In this document: piece by piece, positions 40,389 to 61,956 of the stretch
How positions within the stretch are numbered: position 1 is the stretch's first letter
How the letters are laid out: each line of letters opens with the position of its first letter
Notes under the pieces: model-generated
Told to the model about the DNA's origin: nothing
What the model saw: only the letters and a program-made list of their open reading frames with translations
Databases searched by the model: none
Virus record (IMG/VR): IMGVR_UViG_3300020050_010026
Location: 3,980 to 67,979 of that record
Origin: a virus
Direction: 5' to 3' (one strand)
Length of the DNA: 64,000 nt
Program-made: the position numbers and the translations under genes

Positions 40389-40491
40389 AAGTTAAGACAG
40401 GATTCGAACCTGTAAGATATTGACCGTATCAAGCTCTTAATATAGTTTATCATTCTATAGAACTTTGTGTTTACCATTCCACCACTTAACT
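40389..40491 (-). tRNA. tRNA-like gene, atypical (103 nt): perfect 7-bp acceptor and canonical T-arm, long extra hairpin, non-canonical anticodon region
   Basis: Minus-strand read AGTTAAG…CAGG-TTCGAAT-CCTG-T-CTTAACT. Acceptor 7/7 bp, T-loop TTCGAAT, 3-bp D-stem GTG/CAC with a GG-containing D-loop. A 5-bp stem TATAG/CTATA has a 9-nt loop. A about 25-nt extra arm forms a 9-bp hairpin (type-II-like). No encoded CCA. Confidence 0.4.
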
Positions 40492-40664: not shown

Positions 40665-41231
40665 TTACCAATCAGTTGCTGGAGCTTGAGTTGAGTCAGT
40701 TGATGGTGCATCTGCTTCAATTCTTTCCATTAAATCTGCTGGTTTTTTAGCTAATCTTGAAACTGTTGTATCAGAAGATTCAACAAAATCAAAATATCTA
40801 AGTCCTAAATATTTAGAAGCTTTTTGTGTAGTACCATAAGTAACAAACACATTAACTGTTTTACCTTCACAGTTTTGTCTAATTAAAGAAAATAAATAAT
40901 CAACTACCTCTTTAGCTGTATCTTTATTTTCAAAAACAAAATCTTTTGGTAATACAGATTTAGCAATTGATAAGATTCTACCAATTGTCCATCCTTCTAA
41001 ATCTTTATTTCTTTTTTCATCAAATAAAGGATTTGCAACAGGATAATAAAATCCTACATTTACATCTCCAATAGCATCTGAAAATACCACCTTATAATCA
41101 GGTGCGTTATCTGGATCTACTGCTGTTTTTTTATTTACAGCAACTTTTACGTTATTAACTTTTCCTGCAATTCCATTATTGAAAATTGCAACACTTCCAT
41201 CAAAACTCTTATCATTTAAGTTAAAACTCAT
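40665..41231 (-). CDS. ssDNA-binding protein, putative (T7 gp2.5-like: acidic C-terminal tail ending in an aromatic residue)
   Basis: 188 aa. C-terminus …ERIEADAPSTDSTQAPATDW. Sits between primase/helicase genes in the replication module. Confidence 0.3.
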   Translation of the reverse strand: MSFNLNDKSFDGSVAIFNNGIAGKVNNVKVAVNKKTAVDPDNAPDYKVVFSDAIGDVNVGFYYPVANPLFDEKRNKDLEGWTIGRILSIAKSVLPKDFVFENKDTAKEVVDYLFSLIRQNCEGKTVNVFVTYGTTQKASKYLGLRYFDFVESSDTTVSRLAKKPADLMERIEADAPSTDSTQAPATDW

Positions 41232-41264
41232 ATATTCTTTCTTTTTTTAAATTATTTTTTGGCT

Positions 41265-41298
41265 TATATAAAAAAGTAAGTTTTTTACAGAAACTTAC
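41265..41298 (-). terminator. Intrinsic terminator-like hairpin downstream of the P-loop ATPase gene
   Basis: gtaagttt-tttacag-aaacttac (8-bp stem, 41276-41298), followed on the minus strand by a T6 run. Confidence 0.45.
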
Positions 41299-41332
41299 AA
41301 AACTGCTCGTTAATAGTCAGACTAAATAACTA

Positions 41333-42097
41333 TTATTCTATAAAAATTTTTGACCAATCAATGGTTAGTTTACCATCTTTATCAGATTCAATTAATGTTA
41401 TAGTTTGATTCTTCAAATGATCAGGTCTAGACCCTACAATTAAAGATTCTGAAGGTGCAAAATTTACTAAAGTTTTATTATCATCACGATATACATAACC
41501 TATTGCATCTACCTGAGAACATAGTATAGATGCTATTTTACCAGTTAATGCTAATCCTCTAGATTCCATTTCTTTTCCCTCTTTTTCAACAAACTTGGCT
41601 TTAAGGTGTCCTAAAATAATTAAGGTATCACACAAAGGTTCTATTTCATTTAAAATAACATCCATTGCTTCTCTAAGATATTGATAACCAGCTCCATTTG
41701 GTAGCTTAGTTACGTCTTCTCCAGTCCAATTTCTTCCCATTGGTGTTTTACGATACAAAATGTTTGCTAATTCCAATGCAATATCTTCTAATGCAGATAC
41801 AGTATCTAAAGTGATAAACTTATAAGTATAACCTCCTTTTTTTTCATTGGATTCTCTTATAGTATTAATTATTTCTTTTAACACTGTTAAAGGTGTTTTG
41901 TTGTTATCTCTTGCGAGTTGTAACACATTTATTTTTAAAGCATCTAAAAATTCAGAACCATTTTCTAAATCTAAAATAAGGTTGTTTTCTAAAGCAGCAA
42001 CTGCTGTAGTTTTACCTGATTTAGGATTTGAAAATAGAATAATTTTTTTAGGATTTACTCTAGATGCTTTACTTTTTTGTGTAGGTAATTCAATCAT
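41333..42097 (-). CDS. P-loop NTPase (RecA-like / AAA_24 Sak4-like ATPase), putative
   Basis: Walker A KIILFSNPKSGKTTAVAAL near the N-terminus. Walker-B-like CDTLIILGH. About 250 aa, a size typical of phage Sak4-type ATPases. Confidence 0.45.
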   Translation of the reverse strand: MIELPTQKSKASRVNPKKIILFSNPKSGKTTAVAALENNLILDLENGSEFLDALKINVLQLARDNNKTPLTVLKEIINTIRESNEKKGGYTYKFITLDTVSALEDIALELANILYRKTPMGRNWTGEDVTKLPNGAGYQYLREAMDVILNEIEPLCDTLIILGHLKAKFVEKEGKEMESRGLALTGKIASILCSQVDAIGYVYRDDNKTLVNFAPSESLIVGSRPDHLKNQTITLIESDKDGKLTIDWSKIFIE

Positions 42098-42133
42098 ACA
42101 TTTTTCTTCCGTCCATATACCACCACTATTAAA

Positions 42134-42383
42134 TTATTTTCTAATACTTTTTATAAAATTACACACTTTATGTAATTTTTCACCATCATTTGGTAAAGGT
42201 AGTTCTTTAAAATAATTTACTGCACCATCAAAATATAATGGACAAATAGTTCCACCACCGCCTTCTCGTCCTCCTAAGATTTCAAGGAATCTAATATTAT
42301 CTTTAAAAAATGTAACATCATAACCTAAATACTCTGGTATTTCATGTCTAAAAGGTGAAAACAATCCAACAACAACATTGGCC
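42134..42383 (-). CDS. DnaB/gp4-like replicative helicase, exon C (3' exon)
   Basis: ANVVVGLFSPFRHE…EILGGREGGGGTICPLYFDG aligns to DnaB …DADLIMFIYRDE…IIIGKQRNGPIGTV. The ORF caller's 'M' is a TTG coinciding with the intron omega-G, so it is not a real start. Confidence 0.6.
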
Positions 42384-43366
42384 AATATGTTATCTCATAG
42401 GCTCTTTATCCTATGATTCTATATGTTACCATATAGTTCAGACTATATCTTCAGTACCGTGTACTGCTGGGATTTCGTGGATATATTATATTCTGTAATA
42501 AATGTGAGAGCCTCACACTTTTGATTGTTTTACTCGACACATACTTTTCGTATTGGTTTATATCAGCCAAACGCCTGCATCAGGTTCTACTCTCACATTA
42601 TTACAGTTTCAATATCTAGTCGTTCGACCTTCTATAATCATTTAAATTATAGCTTGGTACGGGATTGTCCTATTAGGATATTCCCCGTTTAACCCAGTTA
42701 CGTGACACATTTATTTTGGAAGTTTATATAACATTGTAGGATGTATATGTTCAATAACTAATTCTTTAAATGTATTATAAAATTTAGCAGGAAGATAAAT
42801 TTTATTATCTGACATTATATTAAAACGAATTTTAAATTTATCAAATAAAAAGTCTATAAAATCTTCAAGTTCTATTTTATTAAAACAATTTGTAGAAATC
42901 ATTATTGAATGAGATGTTTTATAACCATCATCCATAAACATTACAGCTAAAGATAATTCATTAAAATAGGAATATATCCCTTTAGATATAACCTTTTTTT
43001 TATCTTTATAAAACATGTGATACAACTGTAATAATTCTTTTTTATTACAAGTTTCTAAAGTAGCAGACGTATAAAACTTACCATTTCTTTTATCTGGTGT
43101 TTTTCTTGTCCATATTTTAAATTTTGGAGATAATGATTGAATCATTTCTTTTTTCCATTCACAATATTCTGCTTGTTTTGGACCATGATCACATTTAAAT
43201 CTTGGGTTTATACATGCTTTATCAATTCTTAAATGACCATCTCCTAAGACGCATCCTATTAAAAATTGAATTTCTTTTTTAGGTAAATTCATATTTTATA
43301 TATTTTAAAATACAAAGATACAAAAAATATTCCACATTTCCTAATGTTTTTTAACTTTTTTTGCCT
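42384..43366 (-). mobile_element. Group I self-splicing intron (983 nt) carrying a LAGLIDADG homing-endonuclease ORF
   Basis: Minus-strand core elements: P4/P5-like ACGGGGAAT…AATCCCG; P7 5' GGTCGAACGACTAG; P7 3' GAAGATATAGTCTGAAC (the conserved 'AAGAUAUAGUC' S element). Exon 1 ends in U (…CAACGTGAT|). Omega-G at 42384. Joining restores …ETQRD-ANVVVGLF…, co-linear with DnaB. Confidence 0.75.
42711..43292 (-). CDS. LAGLIDADG homing endonuclease (double-motif, intron-encoded)
   Basis: Two LAGLIDADG motifs: LIGCVLGDGHL and LAVMFMDDGYK. Located inside the group I intron. Confidence 0.8.
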   Translation of the reverse strand: MNLPKKEIQFLIGCVLGDGHLRIDKACINPRFKCDHGPKQAEYCEWKKEMIQSLSPKFKIWTRKTPDKRNGKFYTSATLETCNKKELLQLYHMFYKDKKKVISKGIYSYFNELSLAVMFMDDGYKTSHSIMISTNCFNKIELEDFIDFLFDKFKIRFNIMSDNKIYLPAKFYNTFKELVIEHIHPTMLYKLPK

Positions 43367-44056
43367 ATCACGTTGGGTTTCTTTGTTTCCAGCTAGACCA
43401 TCTAATGTTGGTTTTAATTTGTTATATTTTTTATTTTCAATTGATTCTTGAGCAGCAGCTTGTTGTTGTATAACGACAGGTATGTATTTGAATCTATTAC
43501 GAAGTTTAATTAAATAATCTGAACTTAATTTTCCTATTGATTCATGTAATGTCATAGGTATTCCCGTATCATAATTTTTTTCAGGACTAATAAGTCCAAT
43601 ATGATCTATCATTACAATTACATATTCCTCAGGATTATTAGGTTCATAATAATCTTCAACTTCTATTGCTTTACCTTCTATAGTAATAGTTCTATAATGA
43701 ACTTTACCATTAGCTAAAGCATATTTTCGTACTAAATTGTAAATGCCGTATGGATTTCTCACATCATCGACAAATTCAACAATTTCTTCAATCTTATTAA
43801 AATATTCTTTATATTTTTCTATTACTTCTAAAACTTCTTGAGGTAAAATATTATCTGCTTTTGTACTTTTTAATTGAGTTGGACTCAATCTAATACCTTC
43901 TTTAATATATAAAATATTAGAGAATGCTGACAACATCTTTTCTTCTTTACTAATTTCTAATGTAAAATAGAATATTTTTAATTTAATATCTAAGTTATTA
44001 TCAATTACTTGTTGAATTGTATTGTATAAAAATAAGTAATCTGCAATTTGTGTTTT
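43367..44056 (-). CDS. DnaB/gp4-like replicative helicase, exon B (middle exon)
   Basis: The frame is open from a TAA at 44060-62. KTQIADYLF…IFYFTLEISKEEKMLSAF aligns to DnaB GKT-TFAMNL…LIFSLEMPSEQIMMRSL (H1a). YVIVMIDHIGLI is Walker B/H2. SIGKLSSDYLIKLRNRFKYIPVVIQQQAAAQ aligns to EISRSLKALAKELNVPVVALSQLNR (H4). The ATG at 43936 is an internal Met. Confidence 0.65.
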
Positions 44057-44071
44057 CGTTTAATAAAATTA

Positions 44072-44527
44072 TCATATTAAACATTGTTCTTCTGAAAAGC
44101 CCATTAATCCCATTAAATCATAATAAGAATATTTTCCTTTCCCTTTATTATTTAGTTTTGATTCACTATTATTATAATTATATAAATATTTATATTTATT
44201 ACTTGAATTCGACATATATATGATATTCATAAATACCCATTTATTTATATCAGTACAATATAATAATTTTAATTTTTTATTGTATCGTAATAGTTTTTCA
44301 ATTTGTTTAGCTAAATGTTTTTCTGAACAATTTGGATAATATGTTTTAATTACAGTGTGTAAATCTTCAAAACTTCTATTTGCTTGAAAACACTGTGTTT
44401 CTGTTAAATTAATATCAAAGTAAGTTTTTTTAAATTTAAAATCTACTTTGTTCATTTGATAACATTTTTTTAAAAACGTAGTAACTCTTTCTCCCTTTTT
44501 TCTTTCTACATCTACGTATAATTTCAT
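44072..44527 (-). CDS. hypothetical protein, family 1 (paralog of 46034-46462); intron-associated
   Basis: Shares …TETQCFQANRSFEDLHTV…LLYCTDINKWVF…YSYYDLMGLMG with the paralog …TIEQCKSTANRSITDLHRI…LVWCTQINKPVL…YSLKDYEEIMKK. Confidence 0.45.
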   Translation of the reverse strand: MKLYVDVERKKGERVTTFLKKCYQMNKVDFKFKKTYFDINLTETQCFQANRSFEDLHTVIKTYYPNCSEKHLAKQIEKLLRYNKKLKLLYCTDINKWVFMNIIYMSNSSNKYKYLYNYNNSESKLNNKGKGKYSYYDLMGLMGFSEEQCLI

Positions 44528-44550
44528 TTTCTATAATTTAATAATTAAAT

Positions 44551-45156
44551 TTATTGTTGATTTATAATACCATACCATAATTTAATTTGATTACCGGAAT
44601 TTGGATTAAAAAACCATTCACTATTTGATGTTGATTCTTCATCTAAAATTGTATAATAATCTTCAAAATCTTCTTGAAAATTTGTTGAAAACATCCACAT
44701 TCCTTTAGAAGTTTCTCTATCTATCCAATAGTTTATAACTTTTAAAAATAATGCTTGTTTTAATTCAAGTAAATCATCTTCATCGGTATTTACAAATTCA
44801 TCATTTTCAATATGATTTATTAAGTTATTAAGACCTTCAAATCTAACAATTCCACAAGAAAACTCGTTATTAGAATTTCTAGTTAAATTTACAGTTGTTA
44901 CTTTATCAATATTATTGATATCTATATAACTTAATTGATTATTTTGATAAACTATTGAATTTATACAATCCAATTCGGTTCTTAATATAGGTGTTGGTAT
45001 TGTAGAAGGTTCATCTTCAAATAATGATGAATGAAATCTTACGTTTTTACCATTATCATTAATGATTCTAATATAATCATCTTCTTCTAATAACACTTCG
45101 TAGATTTTACCTTCTGTTAATTTATAGTTTTTAGCGTTTTTGCAAATTTTATTCAT
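44551..45156 (-). CDS. hypothetical protein (intron-internal ORF)
   Basis: 201-aa ORF immediately 3' of the internal group I core; no recognisable nuclease motif. Confidence 0.4.
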   Translation of the reverse strand: MNKICKNAKNYKLTEGKIYEVLLEEDDYIRIINDNGKNVRFHSSLFEDEPSTIPTPILRTELDCINSIVYQNNQLSYIDINNIDKVTTVNLTRNSNNEFSCGIVRFEGLNNLINHIENDEFVNTDEDDLLELKQALFLKVINYWIDRETSKGMWMFSTNFQEDFEDYYTILDEESTSNSEWFFNPNSGNQIKLWYGIINQQ

Positions 45157-45184
45157 TTAATTTCTAAATTTAATATTTATATTT

Positions 45185-45300
45185 ATAGTCTAGACTATCT
45201 CATCATCCCATAAGGATGCCGGACGCTGTGGACTGATCGTAATCTTCCTAGTCGTTACACCTTCATCAGTCTTCCCTGAAGCTTGGCACGGTATTATCTA
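45185..45300 (-). ncRNA. Group I intron catalytic-core-like element (P6-P7-P8-P7'-P9), homologous to the core of the LAGLIDADG intron
   Basis: Minus strand: CCGTGCCAAGCTTCAGGGAAGACTGATGAAGGTGTAACGACTAGGAAGATT…GATGAGATAGTCTAGACTAT. Parallels TACCAAGCT…GAAGGTCGAACGACTAGATATT…GAAGATATAGTCTGAACTAT of intron 42384-43366. GC-rich island between two ORFs. Confidence 0.55.
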
Positions 45301-45987
45301 CTTAAAAACATGAAGTAAATATTTTTCAGCAGCTTTAAAATCTTTTGCTTTTAAAAAATTAAAAATAATTTTCTTTTCTTTTTTAAAATTTGAAGATGTT
45401 TTATAATCAAAAATATTATTATACAAACCATTCGTTTTCATATGATATTCTCCAAATATATTTTTAAAACTTTTTAAAGTTTTATATGGTTTATTAAGAT
45501 ATATTTTAGGACTATATCCAGAAGGATCGTAAAATCCATCCATACTTATATTATAATATGGTATTATTGTTTGTAAATTATTAAAATCATATTCTTTTGA
45601 ATTATAATAATGAGATAGTAAAAATGCATTTTGTATTTTTACACCTTCTTTATTCATAATTAAAGTATCTTCTAATATTTTTTTAATATTTTTATATCTA
45701 ACATATCTACAAATTCTAAAGAAAAAAATTTGTTGAGTTTCAAATTCACTTTCAAATTCAAAACTATTTTTTCTAACATTTGTTATTTTTGTTTTAAATC
45801 TAAATTTTTTAATAATTTTAATCAACAAAGATATATCGGTTTCATCATCTGAATAAAATAAATGTTTTAATCCTTCTTTATATCCATTACCACAAGACAT
45901 ATTTTGAATATAATAATTACAATTTAACATTTTTTCACCTCTTATTTTGTAAGTACCACTTTTTAATTTTCTTAAATATTTATTCAT
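45298..45987 (-). CDS. hypothetical protein (intron-internal ORF)
   Basis: 229-aa ORF whose stop abuts the group I core element. Confidence 0.4.
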   Translation of the reverse strand: MNKYLRKLKSGTYKIRGEKMLNCNYYIQNMSCGNGYKEGLKHLFYSDDETDISLLIKIIKKFRFKTKITNVRKNSFEFESEFETQQIFFFRICRYVRYKNIKKILEDTLIMNKEGVKIQNAFLLSHYYNSKEYDFNNLQTIIPYYNISMDGFYDPSGYSPKIYLNKPYKTLKSFKNIFGEYHMKTNGLYNNIFDYKTSSNFKKEKKIIFNFLKAKDFKAAEKYLLHVFK

Positions 45988-46033
45988 TTTTTAAATAGAT
46001 TTTCACCGTTTTCATCCGGTTTAATAATAATTA

Positions 46034-46462
46034 TCATAATTTTTTCATAATTTCTTCATAATCTTTTAAGGAATAACCATCTACTCCTTTTTTAGTAAAA
46101 TAATTATCTTTACTATACTTACTTATCCATTCAGAGGTTTTATTATTTACAAATTTTAAAACTGGTTTATTTATTTGAGTACACCATACCAATATAATTG
46201 ATTTGTCCTCATCCATAAATTGTTTTACAATTTTAATAACTTGTTCTAAACTTGTTTTTGGAAATCTAGATTGTACTATTCTATGTAAATCTGTAATACT
46301 TCTATTAGCTGTTGATTTACATTGTTCAATAGTACATTCTGGATCTGAATAAGAAATGTAAGCTTTACCTCTTAAAAAATACCTAATAAATTGTTTTCTT
46401 GTACTAGTTAAAGGTATGCTATTTAAAGAAACATAAATTAATTCTTGATTGTTTTGATTCAT
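46034..46462 (-). CDS. hypothetical protein, family 1 (paralog of 44072-44527); intron-associated
   Basis: See the paralog alignment under 44072-44527. Confidence 0.45.
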   Translation of the reverse strand: MNQNNQELIYVSLNSIPLTSTRKQFIRYFLRGKAYISYSDPECTIEQCKSTANRSITDLHRIVQSRFPKTSLEQVIKIVKQFMDEDKSIILVWCTQINKPVLKFVNNKTSEWISKYSKDNYFTKKGVDGYSLKDYEEIMKKL

Positions 46463-46537
46463 GTTTTTATATTTTTTTTTATTTTGTAAAATTATTATTT
46501 TTACATCTAAATATTACTATTTAGCTGGGCAAAATTT

Positions 46538-46715
46538 TACCCACTTTACTATTTGCAGTCACATTATAATATTTTCCTTGTTCTATACCTGGATTTTCTT
46601 CTTCAAATCTAGGTAATCCCCAAGGAATACAATTTATTTTACCTGAAAGAATTCTTTCACGTCGCTCTACTAAAGTGTTAAACACTCTACTGTATAAACT
46701 ATTTTGTTCTGTCAT
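46538..46715 (-). CDS. DnaB/gp4-like replicative helicase, exon A (5' exon; ends inside Walker A)
   Basis: MTEQNSLYSRVFNTLVERRERILSGKINCIPWGLPRFEEENPGIEQGKYYNVTANSKVG(K) corresponds to DnaB …TG(F)xxLD…GLxPGDLIIVAARPSMGK and T7 gp4 …VIMVTSGSGMGKS. The ORF runs 4 codons past the GK into the intervening sequence before a stop. Confidence 0.55.
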
Positions 46716-46718
46716 AAA

Positions 46719-47303
46719 TTATTTAAGTTGTGAAGTCCAATTGTCAGTTACTTTTGTATCTATCTCGTCAATAAAAGCACTCAATCTTGAACTTTCTTCT
46801 TTACCATCTTTTTTATAAATAAAATAATCAGCTTGTTGTAAATAAGTTAAACTATTTAAAGAATTTATATATATATCTGCAGCTTTAAGTATTTGTTGTG
46901 GTGAATATGTAGGATTTTCTTGCATCCATCTTTTCATTTTCTCTTTACAAGTACTTAAACTACCCATACTTCCAGGTTTTAAACCTTTCCATTTATTTCT
47001 AAATTCTTCAATAAATTCATTTAATTCATTATTAACGAGTCGTTCTGATTTTCTTATTTCTTTTTTGTTTTTAACAGAATTTATTTTTTCTATTAATAAT
47101 AATTCTATTAATAAATTACCTTTTTCACGAATAATTATTTCATTTTCAGTAAGTTTTATAAATTGTTTTTGTTGTAAGGAATCTAATATATTAGATTCTA
47201 CTTCTAAGTTTTCATACAAATGTATTAAACCTAGAAATTCATTAATAGAAATATTCTGTTCTTTCAATACTTGAAAATCAAGTATGTAAGAATTTTCTAT
47301 CAT
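46719..47303 (-). CDS. hypothetical protein (194 aa) immediately upstream of helicase exon A
   Basis: ORF in a compact array; could encode an N-terminal accessory domain. Confidence 0.4.
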   Translation of the reverse strand: MIENSYILDFQVLKEQNISINEFLGLIHLYENLEVESNILDSLQQKQFIKLTENEIIIREKGNLLIELLLIEKINSVKNKKEIRKSERLVNNELNEFIEEFRNKWKGLKPGSMGSLSTCKEKMKRWMQENPTYSPQQILKAADIYINSLNSLTYLQQADYFIYKKDGKEESSRLSAFIDEIDTKVTDNWTSQLK

Positions 47304-47513
47304 TTAATCTGATTTTATGAATAATAATTCTTCATTTTTATCAATTCTCCATAAATCCCAAACATCATCTCCTTTATTATAAGGTCCATTTTGTTTGTTA
47401 TGAACTTTTAATTCATTAGATAAACTAGAATCTTCAGACATATTATTATATAAGGCAACTTGCATATTTTCAGGATATTTCTTTAATTCTTCAATTAATT
47501 CAATAACAGTCAT
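47304..47513 (-). CDS. hypothetical protein
   Basis: Small ORF in a compact array. Confidence 0.3.
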   Translation of the reverse strand: MTVIELIEELKKYPENMQVALYNNMSEDSSLSNELKVHNKQNGPYNKGDDVWDLWRIDKNEELLFIKSD

Positions 47514-47515
47514 AA

Positions 47516-47911
47516 TTAATTCATTGTTGGTGTGAAATATCCTTGTTTAAAAGCTATCCAATCACCAGATTCTACAATTCTTTCTTTTGGTATATCATTT
47601 ACATAAATATACACACTTGCTTCACCATAAGGTGTTTCAATAGGTATTTTATCATAAAATGTATTATTACCACCAGGAGTATATCCTTCAAGTCGATCTA
47701 CTCTTTCAGCAGTTTTTTCATCTACTTCATATACTTCCATTGTTACAGATGTATTACCATCTTTTTTTAATCCAGGATAAAAACCTAAATCATAAAGACT
47801 AAATTCTGGATTAGTTTGAAAATCTCCTAAATAATTAGAGGTTGATAATAAATGATCATTACCCATCCCTTTCCTGAGGCTACCATACACCGATATTAAT
47901 ATTTTTTTCAT
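47516..47911 (-). CDS. Gamma-glutamyl cyclotransferase-like (GGCT/AIG2 family) protein, second copy
   Basis: YGSLRKGMGNDHLL…LGDF…YDLGFYPGL…VTMEVYEVDEKTAERVDRLEGY…YGEASVYIY is a classic AIG2/GGCT YGSL…EVY…D…EG layout. Confidence 0.55.
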   Translation of the reverse strand: MKKILISVYGSLRKGMGNDHLLSTSNYLGDFQTNPEFSLYDLGFYPGLKKDGNTSVTMEVYEVDEKTAERVDRLEGYTPGGNNTFYDKIPIETPYGEASVYIYVNDIPKERIVESGDWIAFKQGYFTPTMN

Positions 47912-48306
47912 TTGTTTTTTACTATTTCTATTAATTTTTTAAGACATTCAAGTTCTGCTTCTTCGTATGTTTTAAATATGGTATTTTCATTTTCTTCCAT
48001 ATAAGGAATCAGAATAACTTCTCTATATCCATAACCATCCATTTGAATATTTTTACAAATAATATAATGTAATCCATACTTCTCTCTAAAAAATCTGAAT
48101 GCTTGTTGATAAAGTGGTGCTATAATACAATATTTAGTTTGATTAATTGGGTCAATATCAGCATTAAAAGGATTTTCAGTACTTATATGAAAATATCCAT
48201 CTTTATAGTGTTTATTATTAATACTATAAAAACCAATACAAGGCTCATCAAATCCTAATTCTTTTAAAGCTAATGCTTCTACATAAGGTATAAAATCTTT
48301 ATTCAT
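47908..48306 (-). CDS. hypothetical protein
   Basis: ORF in a compact array. Confidence 0.4.
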   Translation of the reverse strand: MNKDFIPYVEALALKELGFDEPCIGFYSINNKHYKDGYFHISTENPFNADIDPINQTKYCIIAPLYQQAFRFFREKYGLHYIICKNIQMDGYGYREVILIPYMEENENTIFKTYEEAELECLKKLIEIVKNK

Positions 48307-60577: not shown

Positions 60578-60650
60578 GGTGATAGGTGAGGGTCGAACTC
60601 ACATTTTTCTGAACCACAATCAGAGGCTTTACCCTTAAGCTACAATCACC
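60578..60650 (-). tRNA. tRNA-His (anticodon GTG) with 5' G-1
   Basis: Minus strand: g-GTGATTG-TA-GCTT-AAGGGTA-AAGC-C-TCTGA-TTGTGGT-TCAGA-AAAAT-GTGAG-TTCGACC-CTCAC-CTATCAC-C. All four stems pair. Anticodon loop is U-U-GUG-G-U. Extra 5' G opposite the C73 discriminator (His identity). Confidence 0.8.
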
Positions 60651-60680
60651 ATGTAAAAATATAAAAGAATTATATTTTTG

Positions 60681-60752
60681 TATTTCCAGAGAGAATTGAA
60701 CTCTCGTTTTTAGGTTGAAAACCTAATGTCCTAACCACTAGACGATGGGAAC
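60681..60752 (-). tRNA. tRNA-Glu (anticodon TTC)
   Basis: Minus strand: GTTCCCA-TC-GTCT-AGTGGTTAGG-ACAT-TTAGG-TTTTCAA-CCTAA-AAAC-GAGAG-TTCAATT-CTCTC-TGGAAAT-A. Resembles the bacterial tRNA-Glu D-arm (TCGTCTAGTGGTTAGGAC). One acceptor mismatch. Confidence 0.7.
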
Positions 60753-60811
60753 GGTTTCTGTATGCTTTACGTAAAGCTATGGTAGTACAGACACTATTAT
60801 TCCATTATTCT

Positions 60812-60938
60812 GTGGAGGTGCCGGCATCGAAACCGGGTCCATAAACAATTTCAATACAATAATATATTACAGCTTAGTTATAGATTTACGTGTTTAACTA
60901 CACATAGGTCAACTGATTAATCAGAATGACTCCACCAC
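60812..60938 (-). other. tRNA-like / hairpin-rich element (about 125 nt) of uncertain nature
   Basis: 3' part CCGG-TTTCGAT-GCCGG-CACCTCC-A resembles a T-arm plus acceptor. The 5' part GGAGTC…CTGATTAATCAG… forms a long imperfect palindrome. No canonical cloverleaf found. Confidence 0.25.
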
Positions 60939-61956
60939 TTCATTTAATCTAATGAAGAAATCTTAAAACAACTTAAAATTAAGCAGCAATTAATTCTTGT
61001 TTCCAAGAAAAATCACCACATATCACATCATTATTTAAAATGTTGTGAACTACTTCCATATTTGCTCTAACTTGAGCGTTTGTATTCTTGTCATTTATTA
61101 ATTCACCTTAGTTTACAGTTATCTCTCTGGCTGATTATTATATTTACTACTATCTATGTCAAATCCTGTCACCCCCTTAAAATAATCTCATTTTGATAGA
61201 ATGTGATTAGTATAACTATTTTCAATATCTTTATATAAATGATGTCACGAGAAACGTGCTTCTCTTACCCTATAGCGTACTAGGAGCATTTATAAAGGTA
61301 TTAAATGTTTAACCTATTTGAGAGTTTTATCATTGCAACTCACAAGTGTTTTCTTTTCTTCAGAAACCAATAGCACCCATTTAACATTGGGTACACCATG
61401 TTTTTATAAAATCACTTGTCCAAATTCTAGTGGAATGGTTACTATGTTGACGTACTTACAACACATGAACATCTTTACAATAAACACAACTGCTAGTACA
61501 GTTTATAATTTGGTGTGCGTACCTAATTCTCCACCTTCATTATTATTTATCTTCAAGCAAGTGATTATATTAAAAACATTGAAAAATACTAGGATTACTC
61601 CTTGGGTTTGCAATGGGTCGAACCCATACTACACACCTCAATCTTCTGTCAATTCAGAAGTAGTATCTTTTTATAAATTATACACCCTATGCGTGCATCA
61701 CATCTTTTTAGCACTTAATGTAGGTAAAATCTTATTATACATTATTCTTATGATTTATAAAATTCAATGTTTAACTTTTAATTTAATTTTGTTTATTACA
61801 ATCTTTACAATTTAAAAATTCTTTTTCATTTCCATGAATGATTTTATTAGTATTACAAAACCATTTCTTTTCATACGGAATAAATATTTCTTTAAAATCT
61901 TTATATTTATACAAACATACAAAAAACAATATCACGCAACTAAAAGGAACAAAACA

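What the first reader, a model, noticed from the sequence alone, without database searches (positions are those of the whole stretch)
44057..46537. 2.5-kb composite intervening sequence: second homologous group I core flanked by four ORFs including a paralogous pair
A compact group I core (45185-45300; GGTGTAACGACTAG … GATAGTCTAGAC) is clearly homologous to the core of the LAGLIDADG intron (shared CCAAGCT…GAAGGT.NAACGACTAG…GA.GATATAGTCT.AAC). It sits between a 229-aa and a 201-aa ORF. Two about 145-aa paralogs (46034-46462 and 44072-44527) share NRS..DLH and CT.INK motifs and sit near each end. Either this is one unusually large group I intron with ORFs in P1/P2 and P9 extensions, or a nested/twintron arrangement. 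The paralog family has no recognisable nuclease motif and may be a new intron-associated protein family.
Basis: partly seen in the sequence, partly recalled or inferred. Interest (0 to 1): 0.65.

Follow-up and report, generated by a model that had tools for sequence, protein, structure and literature searches.

The report
Four-gene group I intron in helicase
The replicative helicase gene of this crAss-like phage is interrupted by one 2.5-kb group I intron whose small ribozyme is broken into pieces lying between four protein genes, and in related phages those same genes are ordinary free-standing neighbours of an uninterrupted helicase, which is not how group I introns normally look.

Summary
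Window 46538..44057 (minus strand, 2,482 nt) splits a DnaB-like helicase inside its Walker A motif (GK|T). Removing it, plus a second LAGLIDADG intron, gives an in-frame 371-aa protein that aligns end to end with uninterrupted homologues.

It is one group I intron, not a twintron.
- P1/P2 lie upstream of ORF142.
- P3, P4 and the 5' strand of P5 lie upstream of ORF229.
- The 3' strand of P9 lies downstream of ORF201.

Rfam misses the window copy because ORF229 sits in L5. It scores orthologous copies without that ORF at 67-69 bits (gathering score 50). Twelve relatives show covariation in P1, P2, P3, P6, P7.1 and P8, and in the helices that close the ORF loops.

Each ORF occupies an optional slot. 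A relative has a 761-nt version with only the ORF151 homologue.

None of the four ORFs looks like a homing endonuclease. Their families also occur, in the same order, as free-standing genes next to uninterrupted helicases. The ribozyme pieces occur in every split locus of this class and in 0 of 54 unsplit ones.

Splicing is inferred, not shown. I rate it a new variant of a known kind.

The parts
46539..46715 (-). Helicase exon 1 (59 codons, ending ...SKVG). Its last five bases, UGGGU (46543..46539), form the 5' strand of P1.
   Evidence: The spliced product aligns end to end with uninterrupted 370-374-aa homologues. The exon frame runs into a stop 16-18 nt into the intron (GKILPS*).
44057..46538 (-). 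The whole group I intron, 2,482 nt. The first base follows U46539 and the last base is the omega-G at 44057.
   Evidence: All 12 related introns keep the U.G pair at the 5' splice site and a terminal G.
46526..46534 (-). Internal guide sequence. UUUU (46534..46531) is the P10 strand and GCCCA (46530..46526) is the P1 3' strand.
   Evidence: P1 cells are 98% paired, with one compensatory position (G-C x10, U-A x2). P10 is 95% paired.
46507..46524 (-). P2 hairpin, CUAAAUA-GUAA-UAUUUAG, with a GNRA loop.
   Evidence: 100% of cells paired; 3 of 7 pairs change on both sides. The MFE fold recovers it.
46490..46499 (-). P2.1 5' strand (AAUAAUAAUU), which closes the loop that holds ORF142.
   Evidence: RNAduplex and cognate versus non-cognate comparison. 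L208 keeps the helix with an unrelated sequence. It is weak in the window itself (-5.9 kcal/mol, z = -0.8).
46034..46462 (-). ORF142: predicted winged-helix protein, paralogue of ORF151. It occupies the slot between P2 and P3.
46023..46032 (-). P2.1 3' strand (AAUUAUUAUU).
45996..46019 (-). 5' strands of P3 (CCGGAUG, 46019..46013), P4 (ACGGU, 46009..46005) and P5 (AUCUA, 46000..45996), with J3/4 AAA.
   Evidence: P3 is 100% paired with two compensatory positions (C-G/U-A 8:4 and 6:6). The Rfam alignment of the orthologous L003 and L197 cores assigns the same helices.
45298..45987 (-). ORF229, located in the P5 loop (L5). Function unknown. Its UAG stop lies in the P5 3' strand.
45193..45300 (-). 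Core 3' half: P5 3' strand, P4 3' strand (Q element), P6, R element with P7 5' strand, P7.1 hairpin, P3 3' strand, P8, and S element with P7 3' strand.
   Evidence: Coordinates; covariation. 91-94% DNA identity to relatives with the same P6/P7.1 modules, while the ORFs have dS 0.4-1.3.
45165..45188 (-). P9 5' strand.
   Evidence: Pairs with 44531-44553 across ORF201 (-8.4 kcal/mol). The inner helix covaries in L197, L201, L208 and L211. In L197 the two strands are 51 nt apart with no ORF between them.
44551..45156 (-). ORF201, located in the P9 loop. It has an N-terminal DUF6501-like domain; function unknown.
   Evidence: The window sequence scores 20.4 bits against a cut-off of 23.8. 34 of 46 family members match DUF6501, best E = 1.8e-20. 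223 family clusters at E <= 0.001. Free-standing orthologues in L008 and L011. dN/dS 0.35-0.41.
44531..44553 (-). P9 3' strand. It overlaps the ORF201 stop codon.
44072..44527 (-). ORF151, paralogue of ORF142. It occupies the 3' tail between P9 and the 3' splice site.
   Evidence: Absent in L201 and L208, where the 3' splice site follows P9 by 7-9 nt. It is the only ORF in the 761-nt L197 intron. dN/dS 0.48-0.57.
43367..44056 (-). Helicase exon 2. Its first bases, AAAAC (44056..44052), form the exon strand of P10.

Best explanation
This is a single cis-spliced group I intron of 2,482 nt. It resembles subgroup IA because it has a P7.1 hairpin between P7 and the P3 3' strand. It is inserted after the Gly codon of the Walker A motif (SKVG|KT) of the phage's DnaB-like replicative helicase.

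**Layout.** The roughly 300-nt ribozyme is spread over five non-coding segments. Four protein genes sit in four peripheral slots:
- ORF142 lies between P2 and P3, closed by a P2.1 helix.
- ORF229 lies in L5.
- ORF201 lies in L9.
- ORF151 lies between P9 and the omega-G.

**Proposed mechanism (inferred).** After transcription, the long-range helices P2.1, P5 and P9 loop the coding regions out. P1 (exon UGGGU with GCCCA) presents the U.G 5' splice site. Guanosine attacks there. P10 (exon-2 AAAAC with the UUUU just 5' of the P1 guide strand) and the omega-G then align the 3' splice site, and the exons are ligated. A separate LAGLIDADG intron is also removed. The result is mRNA for an intact 371-aa helicase.

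**The cargo.** The four ORFs are expressed from the precursor or the excised intron. They are not recognisable homing endonucleases. They belong to the replication-module gene families that flank the helicase in intron-less relatives.

**Shown versus inferred.** Shown here: anatomy, exon continuity, covariation, and the strict co-occurrence of ribozyme pieces with a split helicase. Inferred: actual splicing, whether it needs protein help, and how the ORFs are expressed.
For: 1. **Exon continuity.** Removing 46538..44057 and 43366..42383 gives an in-frame 371-aa protein. It is covered 98-100% by uninterrupted 370-374-aa homologues at up to 77% identity, with no gap at ANSKVGK|TQIAD.
2. **Splice-site rules.** All 12 related introns show U.G at the 5' splice site, a terminal G, and P10.
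3. **Covariance model.** Rfam RF00028 scores orthologous cores without the L5 ORF at 68.8 bits (L003) and 67.1 bits (L197); the gathering score is 50. In L197 P1-P2-P3...P8-P9 are contiguous. So the window's dispersed pieces are parts of one ribozyme.
4. **Covariation.** 92% of cells are paired, against 35-43% when partners are slid. 17 pairs change on both sides, against 2-4 when slid. None of 500 shuffles reaches the observed values for percent paired, pairs changed on both sides, or covariation score; for further pair types, 50 of 500 do. The compensated pairs include ones that span the ORFs: P3 spans ORF229, P1 links exon 1 to the guide sequence, and P10 links the guide sequence upstream of ORF142 to exon 2 downstream of ORF151.
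5. **Bridging helices.** P2.1 (over ORF142) and P9 (over ORF201) keep complementarity through sequence change. L208 P2.1 scores -8.8 kcal/mol for the cognate pair and -1.4 to -4.3 for non-cognate pairs.
6. **Fold of the ORF-excised intron.** The 318-nt construct folds into P1, P2, P2.1, P3, P4, P5, P8 and P9 at -69.4 kcal/mol, z = -5.2.
7. **Optional slots.** Each ORF slot is empty in some relative while the RNA segments stay.
8. **Selection on the RNA.** Ribozyme segments are 91-94% identical between loci whose ORFs have dS 0.4-1.3.
9. **Co-occurrence.** At least four of the five diagnostic ribozyme strings (all five in all but L215) are present in every class-1 split locus. They are present in 0 of 54 loci with an uninterrupted helicase, even though those loci carry the same ORF families.
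10. **Transcript continuity.** No terminator-like site lies inside the intron, and promoter-like sites are at chance level.
Against: - There is no transcript or splicing data; everything is comparative inference.
- Rfam does not detect a group I intron in the window itself, even at E <= 10.
- The bridging helices are A-U only and weak. P2.1 in the window is -5.9 kcal/mol, no better than shuffles (z = -0.8).
- Ribosomes translating four internal ORFs would be expected to disrupt the long-range pairings. Coupled translation is known to interfere with group I folding (review PMC3984707).
- 1.13 kb separates the P7 3' strand from the omega-G. I found no convincing conserved P9.0 or closing helix for the ORF151 loop. 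The only candidate is a recurrent AUAAUUU motif, which is absent from L003 and L160.
- The collinearity of the cargo with free-standing gene blocks is not explained by ordinary, one-ORF-at-a-time invasion.
Confidence: 0.85

Rival explanations
1. Twintron or nested arrangement: the intervening sequence holds two or more group I introns, one inside the other, removed in sequence.
For: Tandem introns do occur at this locus in relatives. L003, L135, L160 and L208 have a second complete intron (RF00028 90-96 bits) 9 nt upstream. The window's helicase has a second intron about 690 nt downstream.
Against: In the window only one set of P3-P8 elements exists between 46538 and 44057. The other spacers (76, 46, 23 and 14 nt) are filled by P1/P2/P2.1, P3-P5, the P9 3' strand and the tail, and are too short for another core. 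The extra introns in relatives are adjacent and separated by a 9-nt exon, not nested. The compact L197 intron shows that all the pieces belong to one ribozyme.
Confidence: 0.03
2. No RNA joining. Exon 1 is a decaying relic or a separate small polypeptide. The helicase is made from exon 2 onward, as gene callers predict (305-308-aa ORFs). The four ORFs are simply ordinary genes lying between the two pieces.
For: Automated gene calls in public contigs start the helicase at M/L-FLYN inside exon 2 (P0001, P0055, P0061). The four ORFs are orthologues of ordinary genes.
Against: - The break falls inside the P-loop (GK|T), so an exon-2-only product would lack Walker A.
- Exon 1 is conserved like the rest of the gene: 80-98% protein identity, and always directly after the g194 gene.
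- P1 covaries between exon 1 and the guide sequence, and P10 is kept.
- The ribozyme pieces are under stronger constraint than synonymous sites.
- They occur only where the helicase is split.
Confidence: 0.04
3. Discontinuous or protein-dependent splicing. The locus is transcribed in several pieces, or the ribozyme cannot fold alone. The dispersed segments would then assemble in trans or only with help from cargo proteins acting as maturases, for example the winged-helix ORF142/151 family.
For: - The ribozyme is physically split into five segments up to 690 nt apart.
- The bridging helices are weak.
- The ORF142/151 family is the one ORF kept in the compact L197 intron, and it recurs in different slots, including L5 in L201. 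That pattern is expected of a factor tied to the intron.
Against: - There are no terminator-like sites and no excess of promoter-like sites inside the intron.
- All pieces are collinear on one strand in canonical 5'-to-3' order.
- L201 and L208 lack ORF151.
- The family is also common next to uninterrupted helicases, where no intron needs help.
- A winged-helix fold suggests DNA binding rather than known maturase folds.
Confidence: 0.08

Closest known systems
Phage group I introns of subgroup IA with one looped-out ORF (T4 td, nrdB and nrdD/sunY; Twort and SPO1 introns). Background from my own knowledge and the review PMC3984707.
   Same: - Located in an essential DNA-metabolism gene at a highly conserved motif.
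- U.G at the 5' splice site, terminal G, P1/P10 guide sequence and Q/R/S consensus.
- An extra hairpin between P7 and the P3 3' strand.
- An in-frame stop soon after the 5' splice site.
- ORFs placed in peripheral loops. The 3'-tail ORF recalls the P9-region ORF of T4 nrdD/sunY.
   Different: - Four ORFs in four separate slots (up to about six in related class-2 introns) instead of none or one.
- None is a recognisable GIY-YIG, HNH, LAGLIDADG or other endonuclease.
- The ORFs are orthologues of free-standing phage genes and are under purifying selection.
- The catalytic core itself is divided by a 690-nt ORF in L5.
- The 3' splice site is 1.13 kb from P7.
Group I introns of crAss-like phages (Yutin et al. 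2021, PMC7886860) and the GIY-YIG 'homing endonuclease' that splits the helicase of crAssphage cr111_1/cr112_1 (NC_055880).
   Same: Same virus order (Crassvirales; relatives are labelled Steigviridae). Same kind of host gene (DnaB-family helicase, N-terminal region). A group I intron in a core replication gene.
   Different: Those introns were found through their endonuclease domains and carry a single HE ORF. [quoted passage not shown] The window intron has no endonuclease domain, so such screens would miss it.
Compact orthologue in IMG/VR contigs L197 and L198 (761 nt).
   Same: Same insertion site. Nearly identical P1, P2, P3-P5, P8 and P9 sequences. An ORF151-family gene in the 3' tail. 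Passes RF00028 at 67.1 bits.
   Different: It lacks ORF142, ORF229 and ORF201. P2 is joined to P3 by 1 nt and the P9 loop is 51 nt. It is what the window intron looks like with three slots empty.
Twintrons and twin-ribozyme introns (for example Didymium DiGIR1/DiGIR2), from my own knowledge.
   Same: A long composite intervening sequence with internal ORF(s).
   Different: Those contain two ribozyme cores. Here there is one core and no second catalytic RNA.

Membership tests
Group I intron (Rfam RF00028) | 5' exon ends in U, which forms a U.G wobble with the internal guide sequence in P1. | tested here: met
   Window UGGGU (46543..46539) pairs with GCCCA (46530..46526). The U.G pair is present in 12 of 12 related introns. 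One P1 position is compensated (G-C x10, U-A x2).
Group I intron (Rfam RF00028) | The intron ends in G (omega-G), and the 3' exon pairs with the 5' part of the guide sequence (P10). | tested here: met
   G at 44057. Exon AAAAC pairs with the (G/A)UUUU immediately 5' of the P1 guide strand. 95% of cells are paired across 12 sequences.
Group I intron (Rfam RF00028) | Conserved core P3-P8 with P/Q/R/S elements that scores above the family's covariance-model threshold. | tested here: met
   The window copy itself gives no hit, even at E <= 10, because ORF229 (690 nt) lies in L5. Orthologous cores without that ORF score 68.8 bits (L003) and 67.1 bits (L197), against a gathering score of 50. The window core segments are 91-94% identical to those of L002, L003, L159, L160 and L210; identity to L197 was not measured.
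Group I intron (Rfam RF00028) | Base-pair covariation supports the helices. | tested here: met
   92% paired, against 35-43% when partners are slid. 17 pairs have changes on both sides, against 2-4. None of 500 shuffles reaches the observed percent paired, pairs changed on both sides, or covariation score. The P2.1 and P9 bridging helices covary. P4 and P7 never vary, so they say nothing either way.
Group I intron (Rfam RF00028) | Removal restores an intact host gene. | tested here: met
   The in-frame 371-aa product aligns without a gap across the junction to uninterrupted homologues.
Group I intron (Rfam RF00028) | Guanosine-dependent self-splicing. | not testable with these tools
   Needs in vitro or in vivo RNA work.
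Subgroup IA (P7.1/P7.2 between P7 and the P3 3' strand) | Extra hairpin(s) inserted between the P7 5' strand and the P3 3' strand. | tested here: inconclusive
   One hairpin (45230-45248), whose outer stem covaries (GGA/UCC, GGG/CCC, AGG/CCU). I did not make a formal subgroup assignment, and my column assignment for the inner pairs was off.
Twintron | A second complete intron core nested inside the first. | tested here: not met
   There is a single set of core elements, and the remaining spacers are 14-76 nt.
Homing endonucleases (LAGLIDADG, GIY-YIG, HNH and others) as the intron ORFs | A recognisable endonuclease domain or motif in the ORF. | tested here: not met
   - Pfam and PHROGs give no endonuclease hit for any of the four ORFs, while the same scans find LAGLIDADG_2 (E = 2.4e-31) in the neighbouring intron's ORF.
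- hhalign of the ORF229 family against that LAGLIDADG gives probability 0.1.
- PDB profile searches are empty.

A novel nuclease fold cannot be excluded.
Winged helix-turn-helix DNA-binding proteins (ORF142/151 family) | A winged-helix fold. | tested here: inconclusive
DUF6501 (PF20111), ORF201 N-terminus | Score above the Pfam gathering threshold. | tested here: inconclusive
   The window protein scores 20.4 bits against a cut-off of 23.8. 34 of 46 family members match, best E = 1.8e-20. The domain has no known function.

The most novel reading that the evidence does not exclude
In this phage lineage the helicase group I intron would be a carrier of a multi-gene cassette rather than a ribozyme plus one homing endonuclease.

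The winged-helix ORF142/151 family would be a new kind of intron-associated or mobile gene, acting as a mobility factor, a maturase or a partner of an unrecognised nuclease. The basis for this is where it turns up:
- in three different intron slots;
- as the sole ORF of the compact intron;
- as free-standing copies on either side of the helicase.

The free-standing 142-(229)-201-151 blocks found upstream or downstream of uninterrupted helicases would then be the same cassette. It would have been released from the intron when the helicase was repaired from one side, or captured into it. On this reading a self-splicing intron mediates the shuffling of ordinary genes around an essential gene.
Probability: 0.2. 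Interest if true: 0.85.

Novelty: new variant of a known kind. Interest (0 to 1): 0.66.

Why it matters
Group I introns are understood as a compact ribozyme with at most one selfish endonuclease or maturase gene looped out of it. Here the ribozyme appears to tolerate four translated genes in four loops, one of them inside the catalytic core, and related introns seem to hold up to about six.

The genes are conserved members of the replication module and are not recognisable endonucleases. If splicing is confirmed, several questions follow:
- How does a 300-nt ribozyme find its parts across 2.5 kb of translated RNA in a bacterium with coupled transcription and translation?
- Is helicase production timed or throttled by expression of the embedded genes?
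- Can introns move or rearrange ordinary genes? The same gene block lies upstream of, downstream of, or inside the helicase in different relatives.

There is also a practical point. Screens that find phage introns through endonuclease domains miss this class. Gene callers mis-annotate the helicase as an N-terminally truncated protein of about 305 aa in public crAss-like contigs.

Tried and rejected
- **Rfam on the window.** No group I hit at gathering score or at E <= 10. This is explained by ORF229 in L5, and resolved by scanning ORF-less orthologues. A gathering-score scan of ten whole loci also missed the ORF-containing copies.
- **Megablast against GenBank phages.** No match for 41000-48000. 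The closest deposited helicases are below 47% identity.
- **R-element pattern GAAGGTNNAACGACTAG.** I replaced it with locus-specific patterns.
- **ORF201 function.** Only the DUF6501 domain; nothing from the PDB profile search.
- **AFDB50 fold search.** Unavailable.
- **First local folding script.** Timed out and was replaced by strand folding.
- **Relic test for an intron origin of the free-standing blocks.** No ribozyme strings in any of 54 uninterrupted-helicase loci, and no duplicate exon-1 hits. So the direction of evolution stays open. In the NJ helicase tree the window-type clade is nested among contiguous types. That weakly favours the cargo intron being derived, but introns and their flanking exons can move horizontally.
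- **Closing helix for the ORF151 loop.** Only a recurrent AUAAUUU motif, absent from L003 and L160. Not claimed.
- **P7.1 inner pairs.** My column assignment was wrong (33-50% paired), so the inner-stem covariation is reported from reading the sequences, not from that table.


Full report
**Context.** The window has 24.8% G+C, and the genes around the finding are on the minus strand. The interrupted gene is a DnaB-family replicative helicase. Its relatives in public data are crAss-like phages, labelled Steigviridae in one JGI record and in GenBank cr111_1. Megablast finds no close GenBank phage.

**Checking the observation.**
- ORF142 and ORF151 are true paralogues: 30% identity, E = 4e-13.
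- The helicase is in three pieces: 46715..46539, 44056..43367 and 42382..42134.
- Joining them gives an in-frame 371-aa protein. 370-374-aa uninterrupted homologues cover it 98-100% at up to 77% identity. There is no gap at the first junction, ANSKVGK|TQIADY, which lies inside the Walker A motif.
- The first intervening sequence is therefore 46538..44057, 2,482 nt. It is preceded by U and ends in G.

**One ribozyme in pieces.** Reading the non-coding segments gives a canonical group I layout (coordinates):
- P1: exon UGGGU with GCCCA.
- UUUU directly 5' of that guide strand is complementary to the first bases of exon 2 (P10).
- A GNRA-capped P2.
- After ORF142: P3 (CCGGAUG), J3/4 AAA, P4 (ACGGU) and the P5 5' strand.
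- After ORF229: the 3' strands of P5 and P4, P6, the R element with P7, a P7.1 hairpin, the P3 3' strand (CGUCCGG), P8, and the S element with the P7 3' strand.
- A long A-U-rich P9 whose two strands flank ORF201.
- ORF151, followed by the omega-G 14 nt after its stop codon.

Rfam does not find a group I intron in the window even at E <= 10. The reason is the 690-nt ORF in L5. In the related contig L003 that ORF is absent and P5 is a short GAAA-capped hairpin; there the same core scores 68.8 bits, against a gathering score of 50. In L197 a 761-nt version of the intron at the same site has P1-P2-P3...P9 contiguous and scores 67.1 bits.

**Comparative evidence.** I collected twelve distinct introns of this class from ENA, Logan and IMG/VR contigs. 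The ribozyme segments are constant, but every ORF slot is empty somewhere:
- The ORF142 slot is empty in L197.
- The ORF229 slot is empty in L003, L160, L211 and L197.
- In L201 the L5 slot holds an ORF142/151-family paralogue instead of ORF229.
- The ORF201 slot is empty in L197.
- The ORF151 slot is empty in L201 and L208, where the 3' splice site follows P9 by 7-9 nt.

On an alignment of the ORF-excised introns (A5), my stated structure has 92% of cells paired, against 35-43% with slid partners. 17 pairs have changes on both sides, against 2-4. None of 500 shuffles reaches the observed percent paired, pairs changed on both sides, or covariation score; for further pair types, 50 of 500 do.

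The informative pairs are the ones that span ORFs:
- P3 has two compensated positions across ORF229.
- P1 has a compensated pair between exon 1 and the guide sequence.
- P10 links the guide sequence upstream of ORF142 to exon 2 downstream of ORF151.

The helices that close the ORF142 and ORF201 loops keep complementarity through sequence change, and cognate strands pair better than non-cognate ones. The 318-nt ORF-excised window intron folds into P1, P2, P2.1, P3, P4, P5, P8 and P9 with z = -5.2.

The ribozyme segments are 91-94% identical between loci whose ORFs have dS 0.4-1.3. Most telling, the diagnostic ribozyme strings occur in every class-1 split locus (all five, except L215 with four). 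They occur in none of 54 loci with an uninterrupted helicase, although those loci carry the same protein families. The RNA pieces go with the split helicase, not with the ORFs.

**Twintron alternative.** It is rejected for the window. There is one core, and the remaining spacers (14-76 nt) are fully used by the helices above. Relatives L003, L135, L160 and L208 do have another, independent intron, but it is adjacent. It lies 9 nt upstream and leaves a mini-exon AAAGUGGGU.

**What the ORFs are.**
- None has an endonuclease signature in Pfam or PHROGs. The same scans identify the LAGLIDADG enzyme of the second intron.
- ORF229 models well (pLDDT 90) but matches nothing convincingly. It shows no profile similarity to LAGLIDADG.
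- ORF201 belongs to a large family (223 clusters) with an N-terminal DUF6501 domain.
- All four are under purifying selection, with dN/dS 0.16-0.73.

**The unexpected part.** These families are not intron-specific. In relatives with an uninterrupted helicase, the same genes in the same order are tightly packed free-standing genes. Four arrangements occur:
- Block upstream: [g194][142][201][151][helicase] in many IMG/VR loci, and [142][201][helicase] in L008. L010 has [142][235 aa][helicase]; its 235-aa gene gave no detectable match to ORF201.
- Block downstream: [helicase][142][229][201][151] in L155, and the same without 229 in L011.
- ORF142 upstream and ORF151 downstream of the helicase.
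- Block absent, as in L013.

The window arrangement is [g194][exon 1][142][229][201][151][exon 2]. So the intron cargo is collinear with an ordinary replication-module block that sits on either side of the helicase elsewhere.

In an NJ helicase tree the window-type introns form one clade nested among contiguous types. The block-downstream type appears twice. I could not establish the direction of change. No ribozyme or exon relics flank the free-standing blocks.

Two scenarios remain:
1. ORFs were captured stepwise into intron loops from the neighbouring block. This does not explain the preserved order.
2. The cargo was released when an intron-containing helicase was repaired from one side by an intron-less allele. 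This would explain blocks on either side, but there is no direct evidence for it.

**Mechanism.** I commit to cis-splicing of one large group I intron (confidence 0.85).
- Shown: anatomy, exon continuity, covariation and co-occurrence.
- Inferred: that splicing occurs, that it is autocatalytic, and that the ORFs are translated from the precursor or the excised intron.

Weak points are the A-U-only bridging helices (window P2.1 is -5.9 kcal/mol, z = -0.8). The likely clash with translating ribosomes and the lack of a clear helix bringing the distant omega-G to the core are two more. Protein-assisted or discontinuous assembly is the main rival (0.08). No terminator-like sites and no excess of promoter-like sites lie inside the intron.

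**Comparison with what is known.** Group I introns in crAss-like core genes are documented, but they were found through endonuclease domains (PMC7886860). GenBank cr111_1 has a GIY-YIG gene splitting its helicase. Classical phage introns carry at most one looped-out ORF (PMC3984707 and my own knowledge). I found no report of a phage group I intron with a multi-gene, non-endonuclease cargo. That search covers open-access text only.

A second class of introns at the same site has the 3' end AGUAACAAANNUG. These carry two to about six ORFs and also show group I R and S elements. Multi-gene helicase introns are therefore widespread in this phage group.

**Verdict.** This is a real feature, a member of the group I family, and a new variant in its architecture and cargo.

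Noticed in passing
window 43366..42383 (minus strand); ORF 43292..42711; guide sequence 42706..42700: The second helicase intron is 984 nt. Its LAGLIDADG ORF (Pfam E = 2.4e-31) lies between the 5' splice site (after ...CGUGAU) and the guide sequence GUCACGU, that is, in the P1 loop region. The intron ends in G before GCCAAU. It is absent from the relatives L002, L003, L135 and L159, whose exons 2 and 3 are contiguous. Rfam does not detect it in the window.
   Followed up: partly
L003 1957-2905 (also L004, L135, L160, L208): An additional independent group I intron lies only 9 nt upstream of this intron's 5' splice site, leaving a 9-nt mini-exon AAAGUGGGU. It carries a GIY-YIG or a 237-239-aa ORF and scores RF00028 90.5-96.5 bits. 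L209 and L216 appear to use a third insertion point 4 nt upstream. The Walker A coding stretch is an intron hotspot.
   Followed up: partly
L212, L214, L218, L220, L221, L222, L224, L227, L232 (between helicase exon 1 and exon 2): A second class of introns sits at the same GK|T site. It has a covarying P1/P2, the conserved 3' end AGUAACAAANNUG, recognisable R and S elements, and two to about six ORFs. The gaps are 1.2-3.8 kb; some gaps include a tandem upstream intron. Most of the ORFs are not detectably related to the window's four.
   Followed up: partly
window 60810-61176 (minus strand); also L197 142-510 and L220 672-1049: A phage-encoded tmRNA gene (RF00023, 55-58 bits against a gathering score of 47) is conserved in related phages. 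Two tRNA genes lie next to it at 60578-60752.
   Followed up: no
window 40389-40491 (minus strand): A tRNA-like hit (42 bits) with long insertions in the anticodon and variable regions. It may be an intron-containing or otherwise unusual tRNA.
   Followed up: no
L002 11002-12901; L005 5451-7342; L011 7273-9164 (window homologue 41333-42097 is intact): The AAA_24 / Sak4-like gene just downstream of the helicase is split in several relatives by an insertion about 1.1 kb long that carries a GIY-YIG ORF. This is presumably another intron. The window copy is uninterrupted.
   Followed up: no
public contigs, e.g. P0001, P0055, P0061, P0070, P0084, P0094: Automated gene calls annotate the split helicase as N-terminally truncated proteins of 272-308 aa that start inside exon 2. 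The real product is hidden in the databases.
   Followed up: yes
L201 2556-3098: In this relative the L5 slot holds an ORF of about 180 aa with the NRS..DL and C..IN motifs of the ORF142/151 family, instead of ORF229. The same family can therefore occupy three different intron slots.
   Followed up: partly
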